The notes beneath the pieces were generated by a model. The model made no database searches. It saw only the letters and a program-made list of their open reading frames with translations, and was not told the origin of the DNA. From the IMG/VR virus record IMGVR_UViG_2909257012_000004: a DNA stretch of 54,350 nt, one strand, 5' to 3'. Positions 3,986 through 54,350 of the stretch are shown in pieces. Made by a program: the position numbers and the translations under genes. This stretch comes from a virus (Duplodnaviria > Heunggongvirae > Uroviricota > Caudoviricetes). Within the stretch, counting starts at the first letter, position 1, and each line of letters begins with the position of its first letter.

Positions 3986-4177
3986 TTAAAGACCTGCCGG
4001 GATTTCGTTATTATCCTGGTGAATAACTTTATCGACCGGGTAACAGTTACCGGGAATTTTCTGTTCGGTTGCTGCAGTCACACACTCCTGCATTGTCCTG
4101 TGAACACTGACTGCAATATCAACTGGCTCTCCGGAAACAAGAAAAACTGTCAGAACAAGTGCAAATGCTGTATTCAT
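3986..4177 (-). CDS. ydfD: YdfD-like small lysis protein (63 aa)
   Basis: Internal start MNTAFALVLTVFLVSGEPV... matches recalled Qin YdfD. ATGA overlap with the dicB stop. Confidence 0.75.
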   Translation of the reverse strand: MNTAFALVLTVFLVSGEPVDIAVSVHRTMQECVTAATEQKIPGNCYPVDKVIHQDNNEIPAGL

Positions 4178-4362
4178 TGCCAGCATCCTTTTTGTATCGG
4201 ACGTAAACGGGCCAGCATTGAAAGAATGCATATTTTATTTAATAGCTCCCGTTCGTGTTTTCTCTTGTTAATGGCATCTTCAGTAAATACAGGGTTACTG
4301 ATATTGACACCAATTTCAAAACAACCTTCAGACGTATTAACGTTTGGTAATAACGTTTCCAT
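4174..4362 (-). CDS. dicB: Cell-division inhibitor DicB (62 aa)
   Basis: METLLPNVNTSEGCFEIGVNISNPVFTEDAINKRKHERELLNKICILSMLARLRPIQKGCWQ is near-identical to recalled K-12 DicB, and lies directly downstream of dicF as in Qin. Confidence 0.85.
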   Translation of the reverse strand: METLLPNVNTSEGCFEIGVNISNPVFTEDAINKRKHERELLNKICILSMLARLRPIQKGCWQ

Positions 4363-4536
4363 TATCGCGTCCTCAACAATGAATTTTGTGATGCGGTGCC
4401 TGGTGCCTCCAGGTGACGTTAACCAGTTAACAATTAACGCCGGATACAGAGAATCCACCCATAACACTGTTTTTGGTTTTAACTGTTCCGCGTGCGCTCA
4501 GCCGCATTCACCACATCACAAAATTCACTTTAAAAA

Positions 4537-4589
4537 GGGCGGCAGAGCAGTCACGGAGTAAAACTGATACCGCCAAACGTCACCAGAAA
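4537..4589 (-). ncRNA. dicF: DicF small RNA (53 nt)
   Basis: Minus-strand sequence TTTCTGGTGACGTTTGGCGGTATCAGTTTTACTCCGTGACTGCTCTGCCGCCC matches the recalled DicF sequence exactly, including its 3' hairpin followed by a T-run. Confidence 0.9.
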
Positions 4590-4927
4590 ATTGATAACAG
4601 AGGGCGTTGCAGCGGAGTTGTCACTTAAGCGTATGGTCAACCTGACAACCCGGTGTCCTCAACGGAGGAAGGAATAACCCCGCCATACTTACCGCCGCGC
4701 CATTTCGCGGAGTGCCACAACCGGAAGCGCACGGTCGAACTAAATTTAACGACACCGTACAGAGAGACCAATTTCGCCGTGCGCTTTCGCTTTATGCCCT
4801 GACTTTTCAGGGACATATCCTTTCAGTAAACTGTCAGTGCCGGATGTTCACCCGTGTCCGGCGCACGCACTCCACCTGACCCGTGGAGAACTCCTTAATT
4901 ACCAACCTTAGCTTCGTTGGTTAGCTA

Positions 4928-5146
4928 TTAACGCGGGTATGTAACCATTCTGGCAATGCTTAATGCCGCTGCTTTTTCCAGCCTGGTGATATCCTGCTCC
5001 AGAGCGGACAGATTTTCAGCCTGCTTAGTCCTGGCTTCATTGGCCCATTTCAGATCCTGCGCTGCATTAATTTTCTGGCGCATCCACTCATAAAGTTCAT
5101 CATCGGTATAGTCTGGCGCGATGATGACGGGTTCTCGTTTCTGCAT
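4928..5146 (-). CDS. ydfC: YdfC-like protein (72 aa)
   Basis: 72-aa ORF in the ydfC position of the operon (between ydfB and dicF). Confidence 0.65.
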   Translation of the reverse strand: MQKREPVIIAPDYTDDELYEWMRQKINAAQDLKWANEARTKQAENLSALEQDITRLEKAAALSIARMVTYPR

Positions 5147-5175
5147 ACTGATTCCTCGCGGTGCTGCTTCGCTTA

Positions 5176-5304
5176 TCAGCCGTTAGATTTTGCCGAGCTG
5201 GAAAGCGCCTGTTTAAACTCACTGAAGCTGAGAGCTTCTTCGCCTTCGGCAAGGCCTTCGAAGTATTCTTCGTAAGCCTTTTCCATGATTGTGTCGAAAT
5301 CCAT
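5176..5304 (-). CDS. ydfB: YdfB-like small protein (42 aa); below the 60-aa cutoff of the ORF track
   Basis: Hand translation of the minus strand gives MDFDTIMEKAYEEYFEGLAEGEEALSFSEFKQALSSSAKSNG between ydfA and ydfC. Confidence 0.7.
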   Translation of the reverse strand: MDFDTIMEKAYEEYFEGLAEGEEALSFSEFKQALSSSAKSNG

Positions 5305-5305
5305 A

Positions 5306-5461
5306 TCACTCACCTGAGTTTCTTTCCAGCCAGCGACGGGCACCATTTTCGGTTTTAAACGTTTTGCTTTTGGTATACGTCATTGCGGTGAACGTGCCGT
5401 CCTGGTTGGGGAACACGCCACATACCAGAGATTCGCTGTTGCCAAGATCGATAGTATCCAT
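5306..5461 (-). CDS. ydfA: YdfA-like small protein (51 aa)
   Basis: Internal start MDTIDLGNSESLVCGVFPNQDGTFTAMTYTKSKTFKTENGARRWLERNSGE matches recalled Qin YdfA. Confidence 0.75.
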   Translation of the reverse strand: MDTIDLGNSESLVCGVFPNQDGTFTAMTYTKSKTFKTENGARRWLERNSGE

Positions 5462-5645
5462 GCTGACCTCATTTCCCCTTAACGCCGGGGGAGCGGAACA
5501 AAAACCTGCTGCATAGTTATTAAAGTTGAACCCTGCCGTCATGTTCTTACGCCTCGGGCTGGCTACTTACCCCCTGACCACTGCTTGGTAACTCGAAGTA
5601 TTGCCCGGCGTTCTGTGGGGCGGGGTGGGTTGGTATGTTGTTAAG

Positions 5646-5659
5646 GTAACAAGAGTTAC
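5646..5659. promoter_or_regulatory. OL-like operator palindrome GTAAC-AAGA-GTTAC in the leftward promoter region
   Basis: Same GTAAC-N4-GTTAC inverted repeat as the two copies between the repressor and cro-like genes. Confidence 0.5.
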
Positions 5660-5704
5660 CTTTCGAGTCAATACAATGTTGCAAAAGGTACATTTGAGGG
5701 CATA

Positions 5705-5731
5705 AAAAACCCGCAATGAATGCGGGTTCTG
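5705..5731 (-). terminator. Rho-independent terminator after the repressor gene
   Basis: Minus-strand hairpin AACCCGCATTCATTGCGGGTT followed by TTTTTTAT. Confidence 0.6.
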
Positions 5732-5733
5732 AC

Positions 5734-6408
5734 TCAGTCTAAGTATTGATGTATTTGTGAAACTTTACCTTTAATGGTGTAACCACCATTCAGTTCGATG
5801 GGTTTGTAAAGCGGATTCAGTGACAACAGATAGATGTTTGGTCCGTCAATCGCAACTTTTTTTAGTGTTACGTTTGGCGTTCCTTCCAATTGGATTAAGA
5901 TTATTTTTCCCACCAGTTCTCTAATGTTACTTGAGCATGGTGTGATCAGCACGGTAGATCCGTCGGGGATGGTTGGGAGGCCGTTAGAGTTTGTCATCGC
6001 ATCTCCCTCAACATGCAATAAAAAAGAGTTTTCAGCGGTTTTTGTCATGACATCAACCCAGTTCTTAATACCAGGAATCTTGGTTACTGGACAACTCATA
6101 TCCCAATAACCAGCCTGTTCCCACGTTAAAACGGGCAACCGGGCGATGTTGTCACTAATGTAAGGGTACTGATTCAGACGCAGATCATCGGTTTTATCGT
6201 GACCGTCCTTTCCATAAAGAATCCATTCAGGAGATTTGGAAAGCAATTTTGACAGTAGATACAAATTCTCACCGTCAGGTTTTGAAGAGCCATTTTCCCA
6301 TTTTGTTACGGATACACGAGATATGCCGATTGCTTTCGCAACCTGCTGTTGGGTTAATCCAACGTCTTTTCGACGATTCCGAATACGTTCGCTGATAGTG
6401 TTTTTCAT
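5734..6408 (-). CDS. CI-like prophage repressor (HTH XRE domain plus LexA/S24 peptidase domain)
   Basis: N-terminal HTH (GLTQQQVAKAIGISRVSVTKWENG) and a C-terminal S24-like domain. Start chosen at MKNTISERI (6408) because the ORF-track start at 6507 would overlap the divergent cro-like start and two operators lie between. Alternative starts at 6450 or 6507. Confidence 0.8.
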   Translation of the reverse strand: MKNTISERIRNRRKDVGLTQQQVAKAIGISRVSVTKWENGSSKPDGENLYLLSKLLSKSPEWILYGKDGHDKTDDLRLNQYPYISDNIARLPVLTWEQAGYWDMSCPVTKIPGIKNWVDVMTKTAENSFLLHVEGDAMTNSNGLPTIPDGSTVLITPCSSNIRELVGKIILIQLEGTPNVTLKKVAIDGPNIYLLSLNPLYKPIELNGGYTIKGKVSQIHQYLD

Positions 6409-6470
6409 GTAACCAATGTTACTACCAAGTGATGTTGCTATGGTTGACATTGTTATGTAACTATTGTTAC
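6409..6470. promoter_or_regulatory. OR-like region with two operator palindromes (GTAACCAATGTTAC at 6409-6422, GTAACTATTGTTAC at 6457-6470)
   Basis: Two 14-bp inverted repeats 48 bp apart in the divergent intergenic region between the repressor and cro-like genes. Confidence 0.6.
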
Positions 6471-6499
6471 CCTTCTGCTCGAAATAACAGGAGAGTTTT

Positions 6500-6715
6500 A
6501 TGTTCAAAGATGATGTTCTGCGCTATTTCAAAAAAAAGCGACTAGTAGCTGAGGCTCTTGGAATTTCACATGTGGCTGTTGTGCGGTGGAAAGCAGTTAT
6601 TCCCAAACTTCGCGCAATGGAACTGGATGAAATTACTAACGGTGAATTGAAATACAACCCAGAACTTTACAAGAAGCAGGATAGCACCTCGAACGAAGGA
6701 AAGAATGATTCATGA
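6500..6715 (+). CDS. Cro-like small DNA-binding regulator (Cro/CI or YdaS-like)
   Basis: 71-aa ORF divergent from the repressor, AGGAGA Shine-Dalgarno, HTH-like segment LGISHVAVVRWK. Confidence 0.65.
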   Translation: MFKDDVLRYFKKKRLVAEALGISHVAVVRWKAVIPKLRAMELDEITNGELKYNPELYKKQDSTSNEGKNDS

Positions 6716-7137
6716 AAATCAAGCATGAACACATCCGCATGGCGATGAATGCCTGGGCGCATCCGGACGGCGAAAAAGTGCCGGCTGCGAAAATTACCAA
6801 AGCGTATTTCGAGCTGGGAATGACGTTCCCGGAACTGTATGACGACAGCCATCCGGAAGCCCTGGCCCGTAATACCCAGAAAATTTTCCGTTGGCTGGAT
6901 AAAGACACCCCTGATGCTGTTGAAAAAATGCAGGCTCTGTTACCGGCGATCGAAAAGGCGATGCCGCCTTTGCTGGTGGCCCGTATGCGCAGCCACAGTT
7001 CTGAATATTACCGTGAGATCGTCGAACGGCGGGATCGGCTGGTGAAGGATGTCGATGATTTTGTTGCGTCAGCGGTTGTTTTGTATGACCAGATGAATCG
7101 CGGCGGCCCGGCAGGGAATGCTGTGGTGATGCACTAA
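6712..7137 (+). CDS. YdaT-like / CII-position regulatory protein
   Basis: 141-aa ORF translationally coupled to the cro-like gene (ATGA overlap). N-terminus MKIKHEHI resembles recalled YdaT. Confidence 0.5.
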   Translation: MKIKHEHIRMAMNAWAHPDGEKVPAAKITKAYFELGMTFPELYDDSHPEALARNTQKIFRWLDKDTPDAVEKMQALLPAIEKAMPPLLVARMRSHSSEYYREIVERRDRLVKDVDDFVASAVVLYDQMNRGGPAGNAVVMH

Positions 7138-43573: not shown

Positions 43574-43640
43574 ATTTTATAACCCAGATACGGGCGCCAG
43601 AAATGGCGCCTTTTTTATTGCAGAAAAGCGAGAGGTAATT

Positions 43641-44020
43641 ATGCGTAAATTATGTGCTGTTATTTTGTCCGCAGTAGTCTGGCAGGTCGCCGCTGCTACG
43701 CCAGCGAGTGCAGCAGAACATCAGTCCACGCTGAGCGCGGGGTATCTCCATGCCTCGACGAACGTTCCCGGTAGTGATGATCTGAACGGGATTAACGTGA
43801 AATACCGTTATGAGTTTACGGACGCGCTGGGGCTGATTACGTCCTTCAGTTATGCCAATGCTGAGGATGAGCAAAAAACGCGCTACAGCGATACCCGCTG
43901 GCATGAAGATTCCGTGCGTAACCGCTGGTTCAGCGTGATGGCGGGGCCGTCTGTACGCGTGAATGAATGGTTCAGCGCGTATGCGATGGCGGGTGTGGCT
44001 TACAGCCGTGTGTCGACTTT
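43641..44020 (+). pseudogene. lom: lom (Ail/Lom outer-membrane protein) 5' fragment, interrupted by an IS21-family insertion
   Basis: Signal peptide and Lom-like N-terminus; the reading frame runs into the IS terminal repeat at 44021. Confidence 0.8.
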
Positions 44021-44213
44021 TGCGTATTTTCATGAAAGGAGATCACTCAATAACTTCCATCGAGATCGGGTAATAACATTTGAACAGATCGCTGAATAAC
44101 ATCGATGGAGATCACTTTTGACTCATTTTGTTATTCAGTGATCTCCATCAATGTTATTGGAACTTCACAGGTGTGTTGATCTGTATCTTTTGCCATTCCG
44201 GTAAAGGATACCT

Positions 44214-45755
44214 ATGCCAACAGTTCCAATTTCTATGAGAAAACTTAAAGAAATTCTTAGGCTTAAATACGGTGTTGGACTCAGCCATCGACAAATTGGT
44301 CGTAGTCTTGCAATCTCCCCTTCCGTTGTATCCAGATATGCTAATCGGGCGGCTCAACTTGGCATAAAGCAGTGGCCCTTACCTACAGGATGGGATGATA
44401 CAAAACTAAAACATGCGTTCCTTCAGACCCAGGTTAAGATGAAGAAGCACTCTCTGCCTGACTGGGCTACAGTACACCGGGAACTGCGTAATAAATGCGT
44501 GACGCTGCAGCTACTCTGGGAAGAATACTGTGAGCGTAATCCAAGCGGTTTTTACAGCTATAACCATTACTGCCGGATGTACCGTGAATGGCTCAAAACC
44601 ACTTCACCATCAATGCGTCAGGTACATAAAGCTGGCGAAAAACTTTTCGTTGATTACTGTGGACCTACCGTTGGCGTTACCGACCCTGAGACCGGAGAAA
44701 TAAGAACTGCTCAGGTCATCGTAGCTGTTCTCGGGGCATCAAGTTACACATGGGCAGAGGCCACCTGGTCTCAGCAGCTTGAAGACTGGGTGATGAGTCA
44801 TGTTCGCTGCTTCCAGTGGTTGGGTGGCGTTCCTGAACTTGTTGTTCCGGACAATCTGAAAAGCGCCACATCCAGGGCATGTAAGTATGATCCTGACGTT
44901 AACCCTACCTACCAGCAGATGCTTGAGCATTATAATGTCGCAGTTTTGCCTGCGCGGCCACGTAAACCGAAAGATAAAGCCAAAGCTGAAGTTGGCGTTC
45001 AGGTTGTTGAACGCTGGATCATGGCCCGAATCAGGCATGAGATCTTCTACAGCCTTGCATCGCTTAATCAGCGCATTCGGGAGTTGCTGGAAAGACTGAA
45101 TAACAAAATAATGCAGAAGTTGGGTTATTCACGTGCAGAACTCTTCATCCAGCTTGATAAACCCGCACTGAAGCCTCTTCCTGAAGCCAGTTACAGTTAC
45201 ACCCTGGTGAAGAAAGTCAGAGTTCATGCCGATTACCACGTGGAAATCGACAAACATTACTACTCGGTTCCATGTTCGCTGTTAGGCCAGCAACTGGAAG
45301 CATGGATCTCCGGAGAACTGGTAAGACTCTTCAATCAGGGGCAGGAGGTTGCTGTGCACCCGCGCAAGCGTACTTATGGCTACAGTACCCGCAACGAGCA
45401 CATGCCTGAAGCTCATCGACAGCATGCCACCTGGACGCCAGAGCGTCTTCTGGAATGGGCGGGGCACATAGGCAGTGAAACTCATAGTTATGTGCTTCAT
45501 ATACTGAACTCTCGTCCACATCCGGAACAAAGCTATCGCTTCTGCCTTGGACTCCTGAACCTTCATAAAAAATACAGTAAAGCCAGACTTAATGCAGCAT
45601 GTGCAAGAGCTCTGAAAACAAAGGTATGGCGTCTGTCAGGTATTAAATCGATCCTGGAAAAAGGTCTGGATAAACAACCTGTTCAGGATCCAAAACCAGA
45701 TCTGTTATCCACGATGGAACACGAAAACGTACGCGGCAGTGAGTATTACCACTGA
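44214..45755 (+). CDS. istA: IS21-family transposase IstA
   Basis: 513-aa ORF with N-terminal HTH and a DDE-type transposase core. Confidence 0.85.
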   Translation: MPTVPISMRKLKEILRLKYGVGLSHRQIGRSLAISPSVVSRYANRAAQLGIKQWPLPTGWDDTKLKHAFLQTQVKMKKHSLPDWATVHRELRNKCVTLQLLWEEYCERNPSGFYSYNHYCRMYREWLKTTSPSMRQVHKAGEKLFVDYCGPTVGVTDPETGEIRTAQVIVAVLGASSYTWAEATWSQQLEDWVMSHVRCFQWLGGVPELVVPDNLKSATSRACKYDPDVNPTYQQMLEHYNVAVLPARPRKPKDKAKAEVGVQVVERWIMARIRHEIFYSLASLNQRIRELLERLNNKIMQKLGYSRAELFIQLDKPALKPLPEASYSYTLVKKVRVHADYHVEIDKHYYSVPCSLLGQQLEAWISGELVRLFNQGQEVAVHPRKRTYGYSTRNEHMPEAHRQHATWTPERLLEWAGHIGSETHSYVLHILNSRPHPEQSYRFCLGLLNLHKKYSKARLNAACARALKTKVWRLSGIKSILEKGLDKQPVQDPKPDLLSTMEHENVRGSEYYH

Positions 45756-45766
45756 TACGGGATCCA

Positions 45767-46516
45767 ATGATGAATCATCTTTACGAACAACTGACCGCAC
45801 TTAAACTCACCGGCTTCCGTGATGCGCTTAAAAAGCAACTTGCTCAACCGGGCACATACCAGGAGCTGGGCTTCGAAGAACGCCTGTCATTACTGACAGC
45901 AGAAGAACTAACCTGCCGTGAAAACAGGAAGGCAGAGCGTCTGATCAAACATGCACGGTTCAGACTTAATGCTGAGTTATCAAAGCTGGATTATCGTAAC
46001 AATAGAGGGCTGGACAGGGCCCTCATCCGTTCACTCAGTCAGGGAAACTGGTTAACCCTGAAACAAAATATTTTACTGACCGGGGCCACCGGCAGCGGTA
46101 AAACGTTCCTGGCATGTGCACTTGGTCATAATGCCTGCCGACAGGGATACAAGGTCTACTATTATCGCCTTAAAGCGCTGATGGAACAGTGCTATCAGGG
46201 GCATGCTGATGGAAGATACAGCAAACTTTTGACCAGGCTGAATAATAGCGATCTGCTGCTTCTGGATGACTGGGGGCTGGAACCTCTCTCATCAGAACAG
46301 CGTAGCGACCTGCTGGAAATAGTGGATCTGATGTACCAACGAGGCTCAATCATCGTAGTGAGCCAGTTGCCGGTGGAAAACTGGTACAAAATGATCGGAG
46401 ACTCCACACATGCGGATGCCATCCTAGATCGACTGGTTCATGGCAGTATCAAGATCGAACTTAAAGGAGAATCAATGCGGAAAATACAATCTCCGTTGAC
46501 CGAAGGAGATCAGTGA
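45767..46516 (+). CDS. istB: IS21-family ATP-binding helper IstB
   Basis: Walker A GATGSGKT and Walker B LLLLDDWG. Confidence 0.85.
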   Translation: MMNHLYEQLTALKLTGFRDALKKQLAQPGTYQELGFEERLSLLTAEELTCRENRKAERLIKHARFRLNAELSKLDYRNNRGLDRALIRSLSQGNWLTLKQNILLTGATGSGKTFLACALGHNACRQGYKVYYYRLKALMEQCYQGHADGRYSKLLTRLNNSDLLLLDDWGLEPLSSEQRSDLLEIVDLMYQRGSIIVVSQLPVENWYKMIGDSTHADAILDRLVHGSIKIELKGESMRKIQSPLTEGDQ

Positions 46517-46601
46517 AGGTAATTTAAAAACGGTTCTGTGAAAGTGACACGAACCGATCTCCATCGATGTTACTCACCGATCTCCTTCACGGTAATACGC
46601 A

Positions 46602-53792: not shown

Positions 53793-54350
53793 TTAAAACC
53801 GCATCAACCTTTCCACCAATTGTTCTTTACGGGCAACGATCCACCCATGTTGCTCCAGATAAAATTTAAACCGTTCCAGCGTGCATACCATCGCATCGGC
53901 GGGGACTTTTTCTGTGAACTCGACCTGACCGTGTTTATCGAAGTGGATCAGTAATGCGCATCCATTATTTGGGGCGGGGGAGTTTTGTGCTGCAGGAGGA
54001 CGTTTGTGGAGTTCTTCTTCCATTGCGTTAAATTTTTCAATGTAAGCTTCTTTTAGTCTGGCTGCTTTTTTGCCAGTAAATCCCATTACGAGGAACATGA
54101 AGCCGTCTTTTGTGATCAGGTAGCATCGTGATTCACGTTCTGCGCCGTTGCCAATTTCGACAGTCTGAACATCGGCCGAAAAGTTGGCTGATGTAAATTC
54201 GGGAGAGCAGTCGAGTGTGTCAATCTTAGCTAAAACGTGTTTATGTTGTTTATCGAAGTAGTCGGCAACAGCTTGAGAGGTGGTAACCAGGCGACCATCT
54301 TTGAAAAAGACTTTTGGTGACTCGTTAGAAAAAGTTATAGCTGTATTCAT
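53793..54350 (-). CDS. Rha-family phage regulatory protein; its start codon is the last three bases of the window
   Basis: 185-aa ORF with Rha-like N-terminus; a hairpin AACCCCGGTGATCATCCGGGGTTTT lies at 53762-53786 past its stop. Confidence 0.7.
   Translation of the reverse strand: MNTAITFSNESPKVFFKDGRLVTTSQAVADYFDKQHKHVLAKIDTLDCSPEFTSANFSADVQTVEIGNGAERESRCYLITKDGFMFLVMGFTGKKAARLKEAYIEKFNAMEEELHKRPPAAQNSPAPNNGCALLIHFDKHGQVEFTEKVPADAMVCTLERFKFYLEQHGWIVARKEQLVERLMRF

What the first reader, a model, noticed from the sequence alone, without database searches (positions are those of the whole stretch)
5646..6470. Three GTAAC-N4-GTTAC operators link a CI-like repressor to both the cro side and the dicB operon promoter
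Two 14-bp palindromes lie between the repressor and cro-like genes (6409-6422 and 6457-6470), and a third copy (5646-5659) lies upstream of ydfA in the leftward promoter region. This suggests a lambda-like OR/OL layout in which one LexA-like repressor silences both lytic genes and the DicB/DicF module.
Basis: seen in the sequence. Interest (0 to 1): 0.5.

Follow-up and report, generated by a model that had tools for sequence, protein, structure and literature searches.

The report
Prophage repressor operators controlling dicB operon
Three copies of a 14-base palindrome mark where the repressor of an E. coli lambda-like prophage most likely binds to keep its lytic genes, its own gene and the cell-division-inhibitor (dicF/dicB) operon switched off; this is an uncharacterised immunity type of an otherwise ordinary, well-known kind of phage switch.

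Summary
GTAAC-N4-GTTAC occurs exactly three times in 54 kb (5646-5659, 6409-6422, 6457-6470), against 0.03 expected.

The sites sit in a lambdoid immunity cassette (about 5638-6703) that has been swapped relative to Rac and phage Tritos.
- One site fills the spacer and -10 of the rightward promoter for a P22-Cro-like gene.
- One abuts the ATG of the repressor gene.
- One fills the spacer and -10 of the leftward promoter upstream of ydfABC-dicF-dicB.

Twenty-seven other distinct loci from 20 or more enterobacterial species encode repressors 43-89% identical with the same or nearly the same recognition helix. All keep the same gap-free OR geometry, and most keep the PL arrangement. Phage mEp390 has a different helix and a different half-site in the same layout. 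A matrix built only from homologues ranks the three sites 1-3 in the window.

The λ-like OR/OL reading is therefore supported by comparison; no binding was tested. Refinements:
- A weak OL2 (5678-5691) is likely, and an OR2 is possible.
- The real start codon is at 6408, so the mRNA is probably leaderless.
- The repressor's catalytic serine is alanine, so RecA-driven self-cleavage is unlikely.

The layout matches the known Qin DicA/dicBp system. This is a new member of a known kind, of modest interest.

The parts
5646..5659 (.). OL1: operator GTAACAAGAGTTAC, within the longer palindrome AAGGTAAC-AAGA-GTTACCTT. It fills the spacer and overlaps the -10 of the leftward promoter PL.
   Evidence: Exact match. 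It ranks 3 of 54,337 positions with the homologue-derived matrix, at 17.7 bits. The arrangement TTGACn-6 nt-site-(C/A)TT is kept in the window and 23 of the 27 homologous loci. It lies inside the swapped immunity cassette.
5643..5671 (-). Inferred PL promoter on the minus strand: -35 TTGACT (5671-5666), a 17-nt spacer, TG at 5651-5650, and -10 TACCTT (5648-5643). The predicted start is near 5636.
   Evidence: Read from the sequence. The same elements are conserved in homologues. Qin dicBp has the same layout. The consensus scanner did not call it because the -10 matches only 3 of 6 positions. No transcription start was mapped here.
5678..5691 (.). Probable weak OL2: GTTGCAAAAGGTAC, 3 mismatches, just upstream of the PL -35 and 32 bp from OL1 start to start.
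   Evidence: A GTAAC-N4-GnnAC site occupies this position in the homologues that have a PL. It ranks 12 of 54,337 in the window at 4.4 bits. The weak match makes this tentative.
5702..5728 (-). Intrinsic terminator of the repressor gene: AACCCGCA-TTCAT-TGCGGGTT followed by a T-run. It separates the repressor transcript from PL.
   Evidence: Read from the sequence. A hairpin plus T-run lies at the same place in L006, L013, L015 and the distant loci. The scan tool did not list it.
5734..6408 (-). Repressor gene of 224 aa: an N-terminal HTH_3 domain with recognition helix ISRVSVTKWENG and a C-terminal Peptidase_S24 domain. The Ala-Gly site (QAG) and the Lys are present, but the nucleophile Ser is Ala (GDAM; codon GCG at 5998-6000).
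   Evidence: Pfam HTH_3 3.5e-17 and Peptidase_S24 9.7e-17. Alignment to λ CI places Ala at the S149 position. Homologues start at this Met, whereas the 14-codon upstream extension called by PGAP is unconserved apart from the operator and the -35.
6409..6422 (.). OR3-like operator GTAACCAATGTTAC, directly abutting the repressor ATG. It contains the likely PRM -10 (TAACAT, 6421-6416 on the minus strand), 7 nt upstream of the A of the ATG.
   Evidence: Exact match. It ranks second in the matrix scan at 21.0 bits. In all 28 distinct rows the site abuts the ATG with no Shine-Dalgarno sequence. mEp390 has its own palindrome in the same place.
6434..6447 (.). Possible degenerate OR2: GTTGCTATGGTTGA, 4 mismatches. 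It lies 23 bp from OR1 and 25 bp from OR3 and overlaps the PR -35.
   Evidence: Support is positional only. All 28 rows have nnAAC-N4-nnnAC at exactly this spacing. The matrix does not support it: rank 256, -9.8 bits. Part of its conservation is explained by the -35 hexamer. Tentative.
6444..6473 (+). Inferred PR promoter: -35 TTGACA (6444-6449), an 18-nt spacer, TG at 6465-6466, and -10 TACCCT (6468-6473). It drives the cro-like gene.
   Evidence: Read from the sequence. The close homologues keep ggTTGACA-7 nt-operator-CYT, and the distant group has a different -35 (TTGCTA-like) at the same place. The scanner did not call it.
6457..6470 (.). OR1-like operator GTAACTATTGTTAC, in the spacer and -10 of PR.
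   Evidence: Exact match. It is the top score in the window at 23.1 bits. It is conserved in all 28 rows.
6500..6715 (+). Cro-like gene of 71 aa (P22_Cro family), the first gene of the rightward operon. It is followed by YdaT-like, replication-initiator-like and DnaC-like genes.
   Evidence: Pfam P22_Cro 2.9e-16. PGAP annotation of an identical locus.
3986..5461 (-). Leftward operon downstream of PL: ydfA (5306-5461), ydfB (5176-5304), ydfC (4928-5146), DicF RNA (4537-4588), dicB (4174-4362) and ydfD (3986-4177). It continues into the exonuclease, xis and int genes.
   Evidence: Pfam DUF1391, DicB and DUF1482. Rfam DicF 76.7 bits. PGAP names in the identical locus L001. The order is the same as in Qin of K-12.
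5500..5640 (-). Conserved leader of the PL transcript, with core AAGUAGCCAGCCCGAGGCGUAAGAACAUGACGGC. It is shared with prophages of other immunity types.
   Evidence: It is 88-96% identical to Rac and Tritos although their repressors differ. The related element in distant loci has a hairpin with compensatory changes. It matches no Rfam family.

Best explanation
The three palindromes are the strong operators of the prophage's own CI/C2-type repressor (224 aa, 5734-6408 minus strand), and most likely also of its Cro-like partner. They form a λ/P22-style immunity switch.

In the lysogen, repressor dimers would bind as follows.
- OR1 (6457-6470) lies between the -35 TTGACA and an extended -10 TGTTACCCT of PR. 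Binding there blocks RNA polymerase and silences the cro-like gene and the replication genes.
- OL1 (5646-5659) lies in the same position of the leftward promoter PL (TTGACT-17 nt-TACCTT). Binding there silences ydfA-ydfB-ydfC-dicF-dicB-ydfD and, further on, exo-xis-int.
- OR3 (6409-6422) overlaps the -10 of the repressor's own promoter, whose transcript probably begins at the ATG (leaderless). Binding there at high repressor concentration gives negative autoregulation.
- Weaker sites, OL2 at 5678-5691 and possibly OR2 at 6434-6447, would be filled cooperatively.

What is shown:
- the sites, their statistical excess and their positions;
- the conservation of sites and geometry across homologues;
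- the co-variation of half-site with recognition helix;
- the co-inheritance of sites with the repressor gene.

What is inferred from the λ/P22/434/Qin paradigm:
- actual binding;
- the promoter assignments and transcription starts;
- leaderless translation, cooperativity, and Cro binding to the same sites.

The repressor's catalytic serine is alanine. Derepression is therefore probably not by RecA-stimulated self-cleavage. It would occur by another route, such as an antirepressor or dilution, or rarely if at all.
For: Statistics:
- There are 3 exact sites against 0.03 expected.
- A matrix built from 75 sites of homologous loci, with the window excluded, ranks them 1-3 of 54,337 positions at 23.1, 21.0 and 17.7 bits. 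The next score is 9.3.

Genes:
- The repressor has HTH_3 and Peptidase_S24 domains, and the divergent gene belongs to the P22_Cro family.
- The closest solved relatives are λ CI, P22 C2 and the 434 repressor.

Conserved geometry:
- Twenty-eight distinct rows (the window plus 27 other loci) were compared, from E. coli, Salmonella, Hamiltonella, Yersinia, Buttiauxella, Kosakonia, Erwinia, Edwardsiella, Klebsiella, phage ZF40 and others.
- Their repressors are 43-89% identical and share the helix (S/T)RV(S/T)(V/I)TKWE.
- All align without gaps as OR1-9 nt-OR2-11 nt-OR3-ATG. Information content is high in the sites and low in the spacers.
- The window and 23 of the 27 other loci have TTGACn-6 nt-OL1-(C/A)TT downstream of the repressor gene.

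Specificity co-variation:
- mEp390 (41% identical, helix NRVTVTGW) has the same architecture with GTAGG/GTAAG...CCTAC sites.
- Tritos and Rac have unrelated short repressors and unrelated repeats at the same PL position.

Mosaic linkage:
- Homology to Tritos ends at 5630 and resumes at 6706. Homology to Rac ends at 5637 and resumes at 6704.
- All sites therefore travel with the repressor-cro cassette and not with the dicB module.

Precedent:
- In Qin, dicBp is PL-like and repressed by DicA, with operators at dicCp and dicBp (PMC10448788; PMC3441716).
- The Qin sequence shows the same -35/operator/-10 layout.
Against: - No binding, footprint, reporter or transcription-start data exist for this repressor. 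None could be produced here.
- The generic sigma-70 scan called no promoter in 4700-6800. My promoter assignments rest on weak -10 hexamers (TACCYT, 3 of 6 matches plus TG) and on conservation.
- OR2 is not supported by the matrix (rank 256). Part of its conservation is simply the PR -35.
- OL2 in the window is the most degenerate copy in the family.
- That DicF and DicB output depends only on PL is extrapolated from Qin. A long structured leader and the DicF terminator lie in between.
Confidence: 0.85

Rival explanations
1. The repressor does bind the three sites. However, the left site controls only initiation at PL, and DicF/DicB output is set mainly downstream. Termination or processing in the long conserved leader and at the DicF terminator, or a separate internal promoter, would decide it. 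The 'link' to DicB/DicF would then be weak in practice.
For: - About 175 nt of conserved, structured, C-rich leader lie between PL and ydfA.
- DicF carries its own terminator-like 3' end (Rfam model).
- dicB lies about 1.3 kb from PL.
Against: - In Qin the whole operon is transcribed from dicBp. [quoted passage not shown]
- Gene order and spacing here match Qin.
Confidence: 0.15
2. The palindromes are recognised mainly by another protein rather than by the adjacent CI-type repressor. Candidates are the Cro-like protein alone, a host transcription factor, or a regulator of another prophage.
For: - Cro proteins of lambdoid phages do share operators with their repressors (established knowledge).
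- No experiment assigns the sites to either protein.
Against: - The half-site changes with the repressor's recognition helix: mEp390 against the SRVSVTKW group.
- The sites are inherited with the repressor-cro cassette and are absent from Rac and Tritos at the same promoter.
- I know of no E. coli host factor with this motif. That rests on my memory and is not a test.
Confidence: 0.05
3. The three matches are chance palindromes or remnants without regulatory function.
For: - The motif has only 10 specified bases.
- About 5 copies per E. coli genome are expected by chance (my arithmetic).
Against: - The expected count in the window is 0.03, and no shuffle reached 3.
- The three sites sit at promoter-specific positions.
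- They are conserved in 20 or more species while the neighbouring bases drift.
Confidence: 0.01

Closest known systems
Qin cryptic prophage dicA-dicC / dicBp control of ydfABC-dicF-dicB (E. coli K-12)
   Same: - Gene order is the same: cro-like gene, then a divergent repressor, terminator, PL-like promoter, ydfA-ydfB-ydfC-dicF-dicB-ydfD.
- Promoter layout is the same: -35 TTGACC, operator in the spacer, -10, and a second operator upstream of the -35.
- An operator lies next to the repressor start.
- DicA represses dicBp and acts at dicCp (PMC10448788; PMC3441716).
   Different: - DicA is 135 aa with no S24 domain. Here the repressor is 224 aa with an S24 domain.
- The operators are unrelated: TTAGTCATAACTAA in Qin against GTAAC-N4-GTTAC here.
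- Qin lacks the long conserved PL leader; homology stops at window position 5499.
- Qin is a decayed remnant. This prophage still carries replication, lysis, head and tail genes.
Phage P22 C2 / Cro (immC) and λ CI / Cro switches
   Same: - The repressor has an HTH domain plus an S24 domain (36% identity to P22 C2; best solved-structure matches λ CI and P22 C2).
- The cro gene is divergent.
- Three evenly spaced operator positions lie at OR (23 and 25 bp apart, against 24 and 23 in λ).
- An operator overlaps the repressor promoter, with an mRNA that probably starts at the AUG, as for λ cI from PRM.
- The same operators occur at PL.
   Different: - The operator sequence differs.
- Only two strong OR sites and one strong OL site are present.
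- The catalytic Ser is replaced by Ala.
- No N gene is evident. The left operon carries dicF and dicB.
Phage 434 repressor operators
   Same: The operator is 14 bp, with outer conserved half-sites and a non-conserved, A/T-rich central 4 bp.
   Different: The half-site sequence differs (ACAA in 434, from my memory). Similarity of the N-terminal domain is low (E 3.6e-5).
cI regions of Pectobacterium phage ZF40 and Escherichia phage vB_EcoS-733R5 (isolated phages)
   Same: - The operator family is the same, GTAAC-N4-G(G/T)TAC, at OR1, at OR3 abutting the ATG, and at OL1.
- The recognition helix is the same or nearly so.
   Different: - Protein identity is only 42-43%.
- The catalytic Ser is retained.
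- The flanking genes differ.
- I found no paper describing these operators.
Rac prophage RacR / YdaS-YdaT
   Same: - The right arm (YdaT-like gene, replication genes) and the PL leader are homologous to the window.
- The -35 of PL lies at the same place.
   Different: RacR is a short unrelated repressor. Rac has different repeats (TAGGnnATGCCTAAT) where the window has GTAAC-N4-GTTAC.

Membership tests
Lambdoid CI/Cro immunity switch (λ, P22, 434 type) | Divergently transcribed repressor (N-terminal HTH, C-terminal S24-fold oligomerisation/cleavage domain) and small Cro-type gene | tested here: met
   The repressor has HTH_3 (3.5e-17) and Peptidase_S24 (9.7e-17). The divergent gene matches P22_Cro (2.9e-16). 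Solved-structure matches are λ CI and P22 C2.
Lambdoid CI/Cro immunity switch (λ, P22, 434 type) | Several related palindromic operators in the intergenic region, overlapping the rightward promoter and the repressor's own promoter | tested here: met
   Two exact sites overlap PR and abut the repressor ATG. Their geometry is conserved in 28 distinct rows. A third, middle site is supported only by position.
Lambdoid CI/Cro immunity switch (λ, P22, 434 type) | The same operator sequence at a leftward early promoter (OL/PL) | tested here: met
   OL1 at 5646-5659 lies between TTGACT and TACCTT. The window and 23 of the 27 homologous loci keep this arrangement. A weak OL2 ranks 12 in the window.
Lambdoid CI/Cro immunity switch (λ, P22, 434 type) | Operators and repressor form one exchangeable immunity module with matched specificity | tested here: met
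   The cassette boundaries are about 5630-5637 and 6704-6706 against Tritos and Rac. The half-site co-varies with the recognition helix in mEp390.
Lambdoid CI/Cro immunity switch (λ, P22, 434 type) | RecA-stimulated self-cleavage apparatus: Ala-Gly site plus Ser/Lys dyad | tested here: not met
   The Ala-Gly site (QAG) and the Lys (LKKV) are present, but the nucleophile is Ala (GDAM), aligned to λ CI Ser149. Ala was found in every sampled member carrying the motif in three 90%-identity clusters. Ser is kept in a fourth cluster and in all distant homologues. This feature defines SOS inducibility, not operator control.
Lambdoid CI/Cro immunity switch (λ, P22, 434 type) | Demonstrated sequence-specific binding and repression | not testable with these tools
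   This needs EMSA or footprinting and reporter fusions.
Qin-type dicA/dicBp regulation of the dicBF operon | ydfA-ydfB-ydfC-dicF-dicB-ydfD operon immediately downstream of, and on the same strand as, the repressor gene, behind a PL-like promoter with operators | tested here: met
   Searches identify the genes. The order is the same in K-12 Qin, and the promoter layout is the same.
Qin-type dicA/dicBp regulation of the dicBF operon | The repressor is DicA (135 aa, no cleavage domain) recognising Oc-type TTAGTCATAACTAA operators | tested here: not met
   The protein here is different (224 aa, with an S24 domain) and so is the operator (Oc sequence from PMC3441716).
Host LexA / SOS box | LexA winged-helix DNA-binding domain and CTGT-N8-ACAG boxes | tested here: not met
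   The N-terminal domain is HTH_3, not LexA_DNA_bind. The only exact SOS-box-like match in the window is at 45884, within chance expectation.

The most novel reading that the evidence does not exclude
The switch is naturally blind to the SOS signal. The repressor keeps the whole S24 fold, the Ala-Gly site and the catalytic lysine. It has alanine in place of the nucleophilic serine, the same change as the classic non-cleavable LexA S119A and λ CI S149A mutants.

This allele was found in every sampled member carrying the motif in three sequence clusters (E. coli/E. albertii, a second E. coli cluster, and Salmonella). A sister E. coli cluster and all distant relatives keep serine.

If true, a prophage immunity type present in about 13% of complete E. 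coli genomes keeps its lytic genes and the DicF/DicB cell-division module under a repressor that DNA damage cannot inactivate directly. Induction would then need an antirepressor or another unknown signal, or the prophage would be effectively domesticated.
Probability: 0.6. Interest if true: 0.45.

Novelty: new member of a known kind. Interest (0 to 1): 0.3.

Why it matters
It assigns a concrete, testable operator (GTAAC-N4-G(T/G)TAC) and promoter map to an uncharacterised immunity type. That type is carried by about one in eight complete E. coli genomes (701 of 5,426) and by relatives in many Enterobacterales. No record among 50,697 phage genomes carries this particular repressor; the best match is 43% identical.

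It also shows that the DicF/DicB division-inhibitor module is plugged in behind interchangeable immunity cassettes: DicA in Qin, a short repressor in Tritos, and this CI-type repressor here. The conditions under which DicF and DicB are made will therefore differ between strains.

The serine-to-alanine repressor suggests that, in these strains, the module is not SOS-inducible in the classical way. None of this changes the general picture of lambdoid regulation.

Tried and rejected
- **Generic promoter and terminator scan.** It called no sigma-70 promoter. It also missed the repressor terminator, which is visible in the sequence. I therefore assigned promoters by hand and by conservation and marked them as inferred.
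- **Further copies of the motif in the prophage.** None exceeded chance. The sites at 9294 and 52254 have one mismatch and lie within expectation.
- **A real OR2.** It is positionally conserved but scores -9.8 bits, rank 256. I kept it only as a possibility.
- **The longer 238-aa repressor start called by PGAP (6450).** I rejected it for three reasons. The 14 extra codons are not conserved as protein. They consist of the PR -35, a spacer and OR3. Distant homologues have an in-frame stop there.
- **LexA boxes that might control an antirepressor.** There was nothing convincing. A Rha-family gene and an ash gene lie at the right prophage end, but no clear SOS box precedes them.
- **Literature.** I found no paper describing this operator or the ZF40 cI operators, and none on natural Ser-to-Ala CI repressors. 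The library is incomplete, so this is not proof of absence.
- **Whether the conserved PL leader is HK022 putL.** There is no blastn similarity, no obvious identity on reading the HK022 PL region and no Rfam family. This is left open.
Full report

Yes. The pattern GTAACNNNNGTTAC has exactly three matches in the 54,350-base window, at 5646-5659, 6409-6422 and 6457-6470. The expected count from 100 dinucleotide-preserving shuffles is 0.03, and no shuffle had more than one match. Relaxing to two mismatches gives 24 matches against 14.4 expected. Apart from the three exact sites there is therefore only background.

**2. Context**

The window is an E. coli lambdoid prophage. An identical copy in strain 4/1-1 is inserted in ompW. 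It runs from int/xis through replication, Q, lysis, head and tail genes, and has an ISEc12 insertion in lom.

The region of the finding contains these genes on the minus strand:
- a repressor with HTH_3 and Peptidase_S24 domains (5734-6408);
- then ydfA, ydfB, ydfC, DicF RNA, dicB and ydfD.

On the plus strand it contains a P22_Cro-family gene (6500-6715), followed by YdaT-like, initiator-like and DnaC-like genes.

The full 1.1-kb region is present in 701 of 5,426 complete E. coli genomes. No record in a collection of 50,697 phage genomes has a repressor more than 43% identical.

**3. Where the sites sit (read)**

- **6457-6470 (OR1).** It lies between TTGACA (6444-6449) and TGtTACCCT (6465-6473). 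That is the spacer and -10 of a rightward promoter, about 30 nt upstream of the cro-like gene.
- **5646-5659 (OL1).** On the minus strand it lies between TTGACT (5671-5666) and TGtTACCTT (5651-5643). This leftward promoter sits just downstream of the repressor gene's hairpin-plus-T-run terminator (5702-5728) and upstream of ydfA.
- **6409-6422 (OR3).** It ends one base before the repressor's ATG (6408). It contains TAACAT, 7 nt upstream of the A of the ATG, and no Shine-Dalgarno sequence precedes the ATG.

The generic promoter scan called none of these promoters, because the -10 hexamers match only 3 of 6 positions. The promoter assignments are therefore inference supported by conservation.

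**4. Start codon**

PGAP starts the repressor at 6450, giving 238 aa. I reject this start on three grounds.
- The extra 14 codons differ almost completely between homologues whose remaining sequence is 66-89% identical.
- The only conserved parts of the extension are 'MST', which is the reverse complement of the PR -35 (ggTTGACAt), and 'NIGY', which is OR3.
- More distant homologues start at the downstream Met and have a stop in the upstream frame.

The gene therefore starts at 6408, and the site at 6409-6422 is non-coding.

**5. Comparative test**

I collected loci encoding homologous repressors.

Across the window and 27 other distinct sequences from 20 or more species, with proteins 43-89% identical, the recognition helix (S/T)RV(S/T)(V/I)TKWE is essentially invariant. 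The upstream region aligns without a single gap as OR1(14)-9-OR2(14)-11-OR3(14)-ATG. Information content is near maximal in OR1 and OR3 and low in the spacers.

The window and 23 of the 27 other loci have TTGACn-6 nt-GTAAC-N4-G(T/G)TAC-(C/A)TT downstream of the repressor gene's terminator. They also carry a second, more variable site upstream of the -35.

A symmetrised weight matrix was built from 75 homologue sites, with the window excluded. It ranks the three window sites 1, 2 and 3 of 54,337 positions, at 23.1, 21.0 and 17.7 bits, with the next score at 9.3. The candidate OL2 (5678-5691) ranks 12th. The candidate OR2 (6434-6447) ranks 256th and is not supported by sequence.

**6. Specificity controls**

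- Phage mEp390 has a 41%-identical repressor with a different helix (NRVTVTGW). It keeps the architecture, including a palindrome abutting the ATG, but its half-sites are GTAGG/GTAAG...CCTAC.
- Phage Tritos and the Rac prophage carry the same ydfA-type left arm and/or PL leader, and a homologous YdaT-type right arm. They have unrelated short repressors and unrelated repeats at the PL position.
- Homology between the window and Tritos stops at 5630 and resumes at 6706. For Rac the boundaries are 5637 and 6704.

The segment about 5638-6703 is thus an exchangeable immunity cassette: PL and its operators, terminator, repressor, OR and cro. All three palindromes belong to it and not to the dicB module.

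**7. Mechanism**

The best-supported explanation is a classical lambdoid switch.
- Repressor dimers at OR1 and OL1 occlude PR and PL. This silences the cro/replication arm and the ydfABC-dicF-dicB-ydfD-exo-xis-int arm.
- A site over the repressor's own -10 and start gives negative autoregulation of a probably leaderless mRNA.
- Weaker OL2 and OR2 positions would be filled cooperatively.
- The Cro-like protein would use the same sites in the opposite order.

The sites, their positions, their conservation and their co-variation with the protein are shown. Binding, promoter use, the leaderless start, cooperativity and the role of Cro are inferred from the λ/P22/434 paradigm.

The nearest precedent is Qin. 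There dicBp is described as PL-like and is repressed by DicA, with operators at both dicCp and dicBp. The whole dicBF operon is transcribed from dicBp (PMC10448788; PMC3441716). The K-12 Qin sequence has the same -35/operator/-10 layout, with TTAGTCATGGCTAA-type sites.

**8. A departure from the 'LexA-like' label**

The S24 domain keeps the Ala-Gly site (QAG) and the lysine (LKKV). The nucleophilic serine, however, is alanine: GDAM, codon GCG at 5998-6000. It aligns with Ser149 of λ CI.

Alanine was found in every sampled member carrying the motif in three 90%-identity clusters: E. coli/E. albertii, where one member alone is seen on 1,000 or more contigs; a second E. coli cluster; and Salmonella. 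A fourth E. coli cluster, about 88% identical, and all distant homologues keep serine.

By established knowledge, LexA S119A and λ CI S149A are non-cleavable. This repressor should therefore not respond to RecA directly.

I found no convincing SOS box for an antirepressor. A Rha-family gene and an ash gene lie at the right end of the prophage.

**9. Comparison and novelty**

The system works like, and is built like, the λ/P22 switch and the Qin dicA-dicC-dicBp system.
- It is not DicA: the protein and the operator are different.
- It is not LexA: the DNA-binding domain and the box are different.
- The same operator family occurs unremarked in isolated phages ZF40 and vB_EcoS-733R5. I found no paper describing it, but the library is incomplete.

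The finding is a new member (immunity specificity) of a known kind. Interest is modest. The most novel element is the naturally nucleophile-less repressor.

**10. Seen in passing**

The PL transcript begins with a conserved leader that is shared across immunity types (window, Rac, Tritos). A shorter form occurs in the distant loci. That form has an outer stem GCGAAC/UUCGC and an inner hairpin in which three pairs each show 6-8 compensatory changes. It matches no Rfam family and is not detectably similar to HK022 putL, which occupies the same position. Its function is open.

Noticed in passing
window 5998-6000 (minus strand; codon GCG in the motif GDAM of the repressor, 5734-6408): The catalytic serine of the S24 self-cleavage domain is alanine, while the Ala-Gly site and the lysine are retained. 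Alanine was found in every sampled member carrying the motif in three sequence clusters (E. coli/E. albertii, a second E. coli cluster, Salmonella). A sister E. coli cluster and all distant homologues keep serine. This predicts a repressor that RecA cannot inactivate.
   Followed up: partly
window about 5500-5640, minus strand (core about 5519-5552); also L002 (Rac), L057 (Tritos), L009, L019-L037 and L055 (ZF40): A conserved RNA leader lies immediately downstream of PL and is shared by prophages with different repressors. The distant version (GCGAACAGGCAGGACGCCCACGAAGUAGCCGCCnnnGGCRUAYGAAnnnnnGGAUGAUUCGC) has an outer stem and a hairpin with 6-8 compensatory changes per pair. It matches no Rfam family and shows no blastn similarity to HK022 putL, which occupies the same position. 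It could be an antitermination, processing or Rho-related element.
   Followed up: partly
window 6409-6450 (minus strand): RefSeq/PGAP annotates the repressor with a start at 6450 (238 aa). That extension is made of the PR -35, a spacer and OR3, and it is not conserved as protein. The likely start is 6408 (224 aa), with no Shine-Dalgarno sequence, which suggests a leaderless mRNA.
   Followed up: yes
L054 (phage mEp390), upstream and downstream of the repressor gene at 895-1551: mEp390 has the same switch architecture, but its operators are GTAGG-N4-CCTAC / GTAAG-N4-CCTAC and its recognition helix is different (NRVTVTGW). This is a natural helix/half-site specificity pair that could be used for swap experiments.
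   Followed up: partly
L057 (phage Tritos) and L002 (Rac) compared with window 5300-7130: The ydfA-ydfB-ydfC (and dicF/dicB) left arm and the YdaT-type right arm are joined to at least four different immunity cassettes in different prophages: DicA in Qin, RacR in Rac, a 139-aa repressor in Tritos, and the CI-type repressor here. The recombination boundaries lie at about 5630-5637 and 6704-6706.
   Followed up: partly
window about 43600-46600 and 53793-54350; L058: The prophage is inserted in ompW and has an IS21-family element (ISEc12) inside lom, and it carries remnants of tail-fibre genes and a truncated recombinase gene. It ends with an ash-family gene and a Rha-family regulator gene. The Rha-family gene is cut by the window end and is a possible antirepressor candidate. 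No clear SOS box lies upstream.
   Followed up: partly
L030 and L031, downstream of PL: Some distant relatives carry a perfect boxA-like CGCTCTTTAACAA downstream of the leader element, which hints at N/Nus-type antitermination sites in those prophages. I did not see an equivalent in the window.
   Followed up: no
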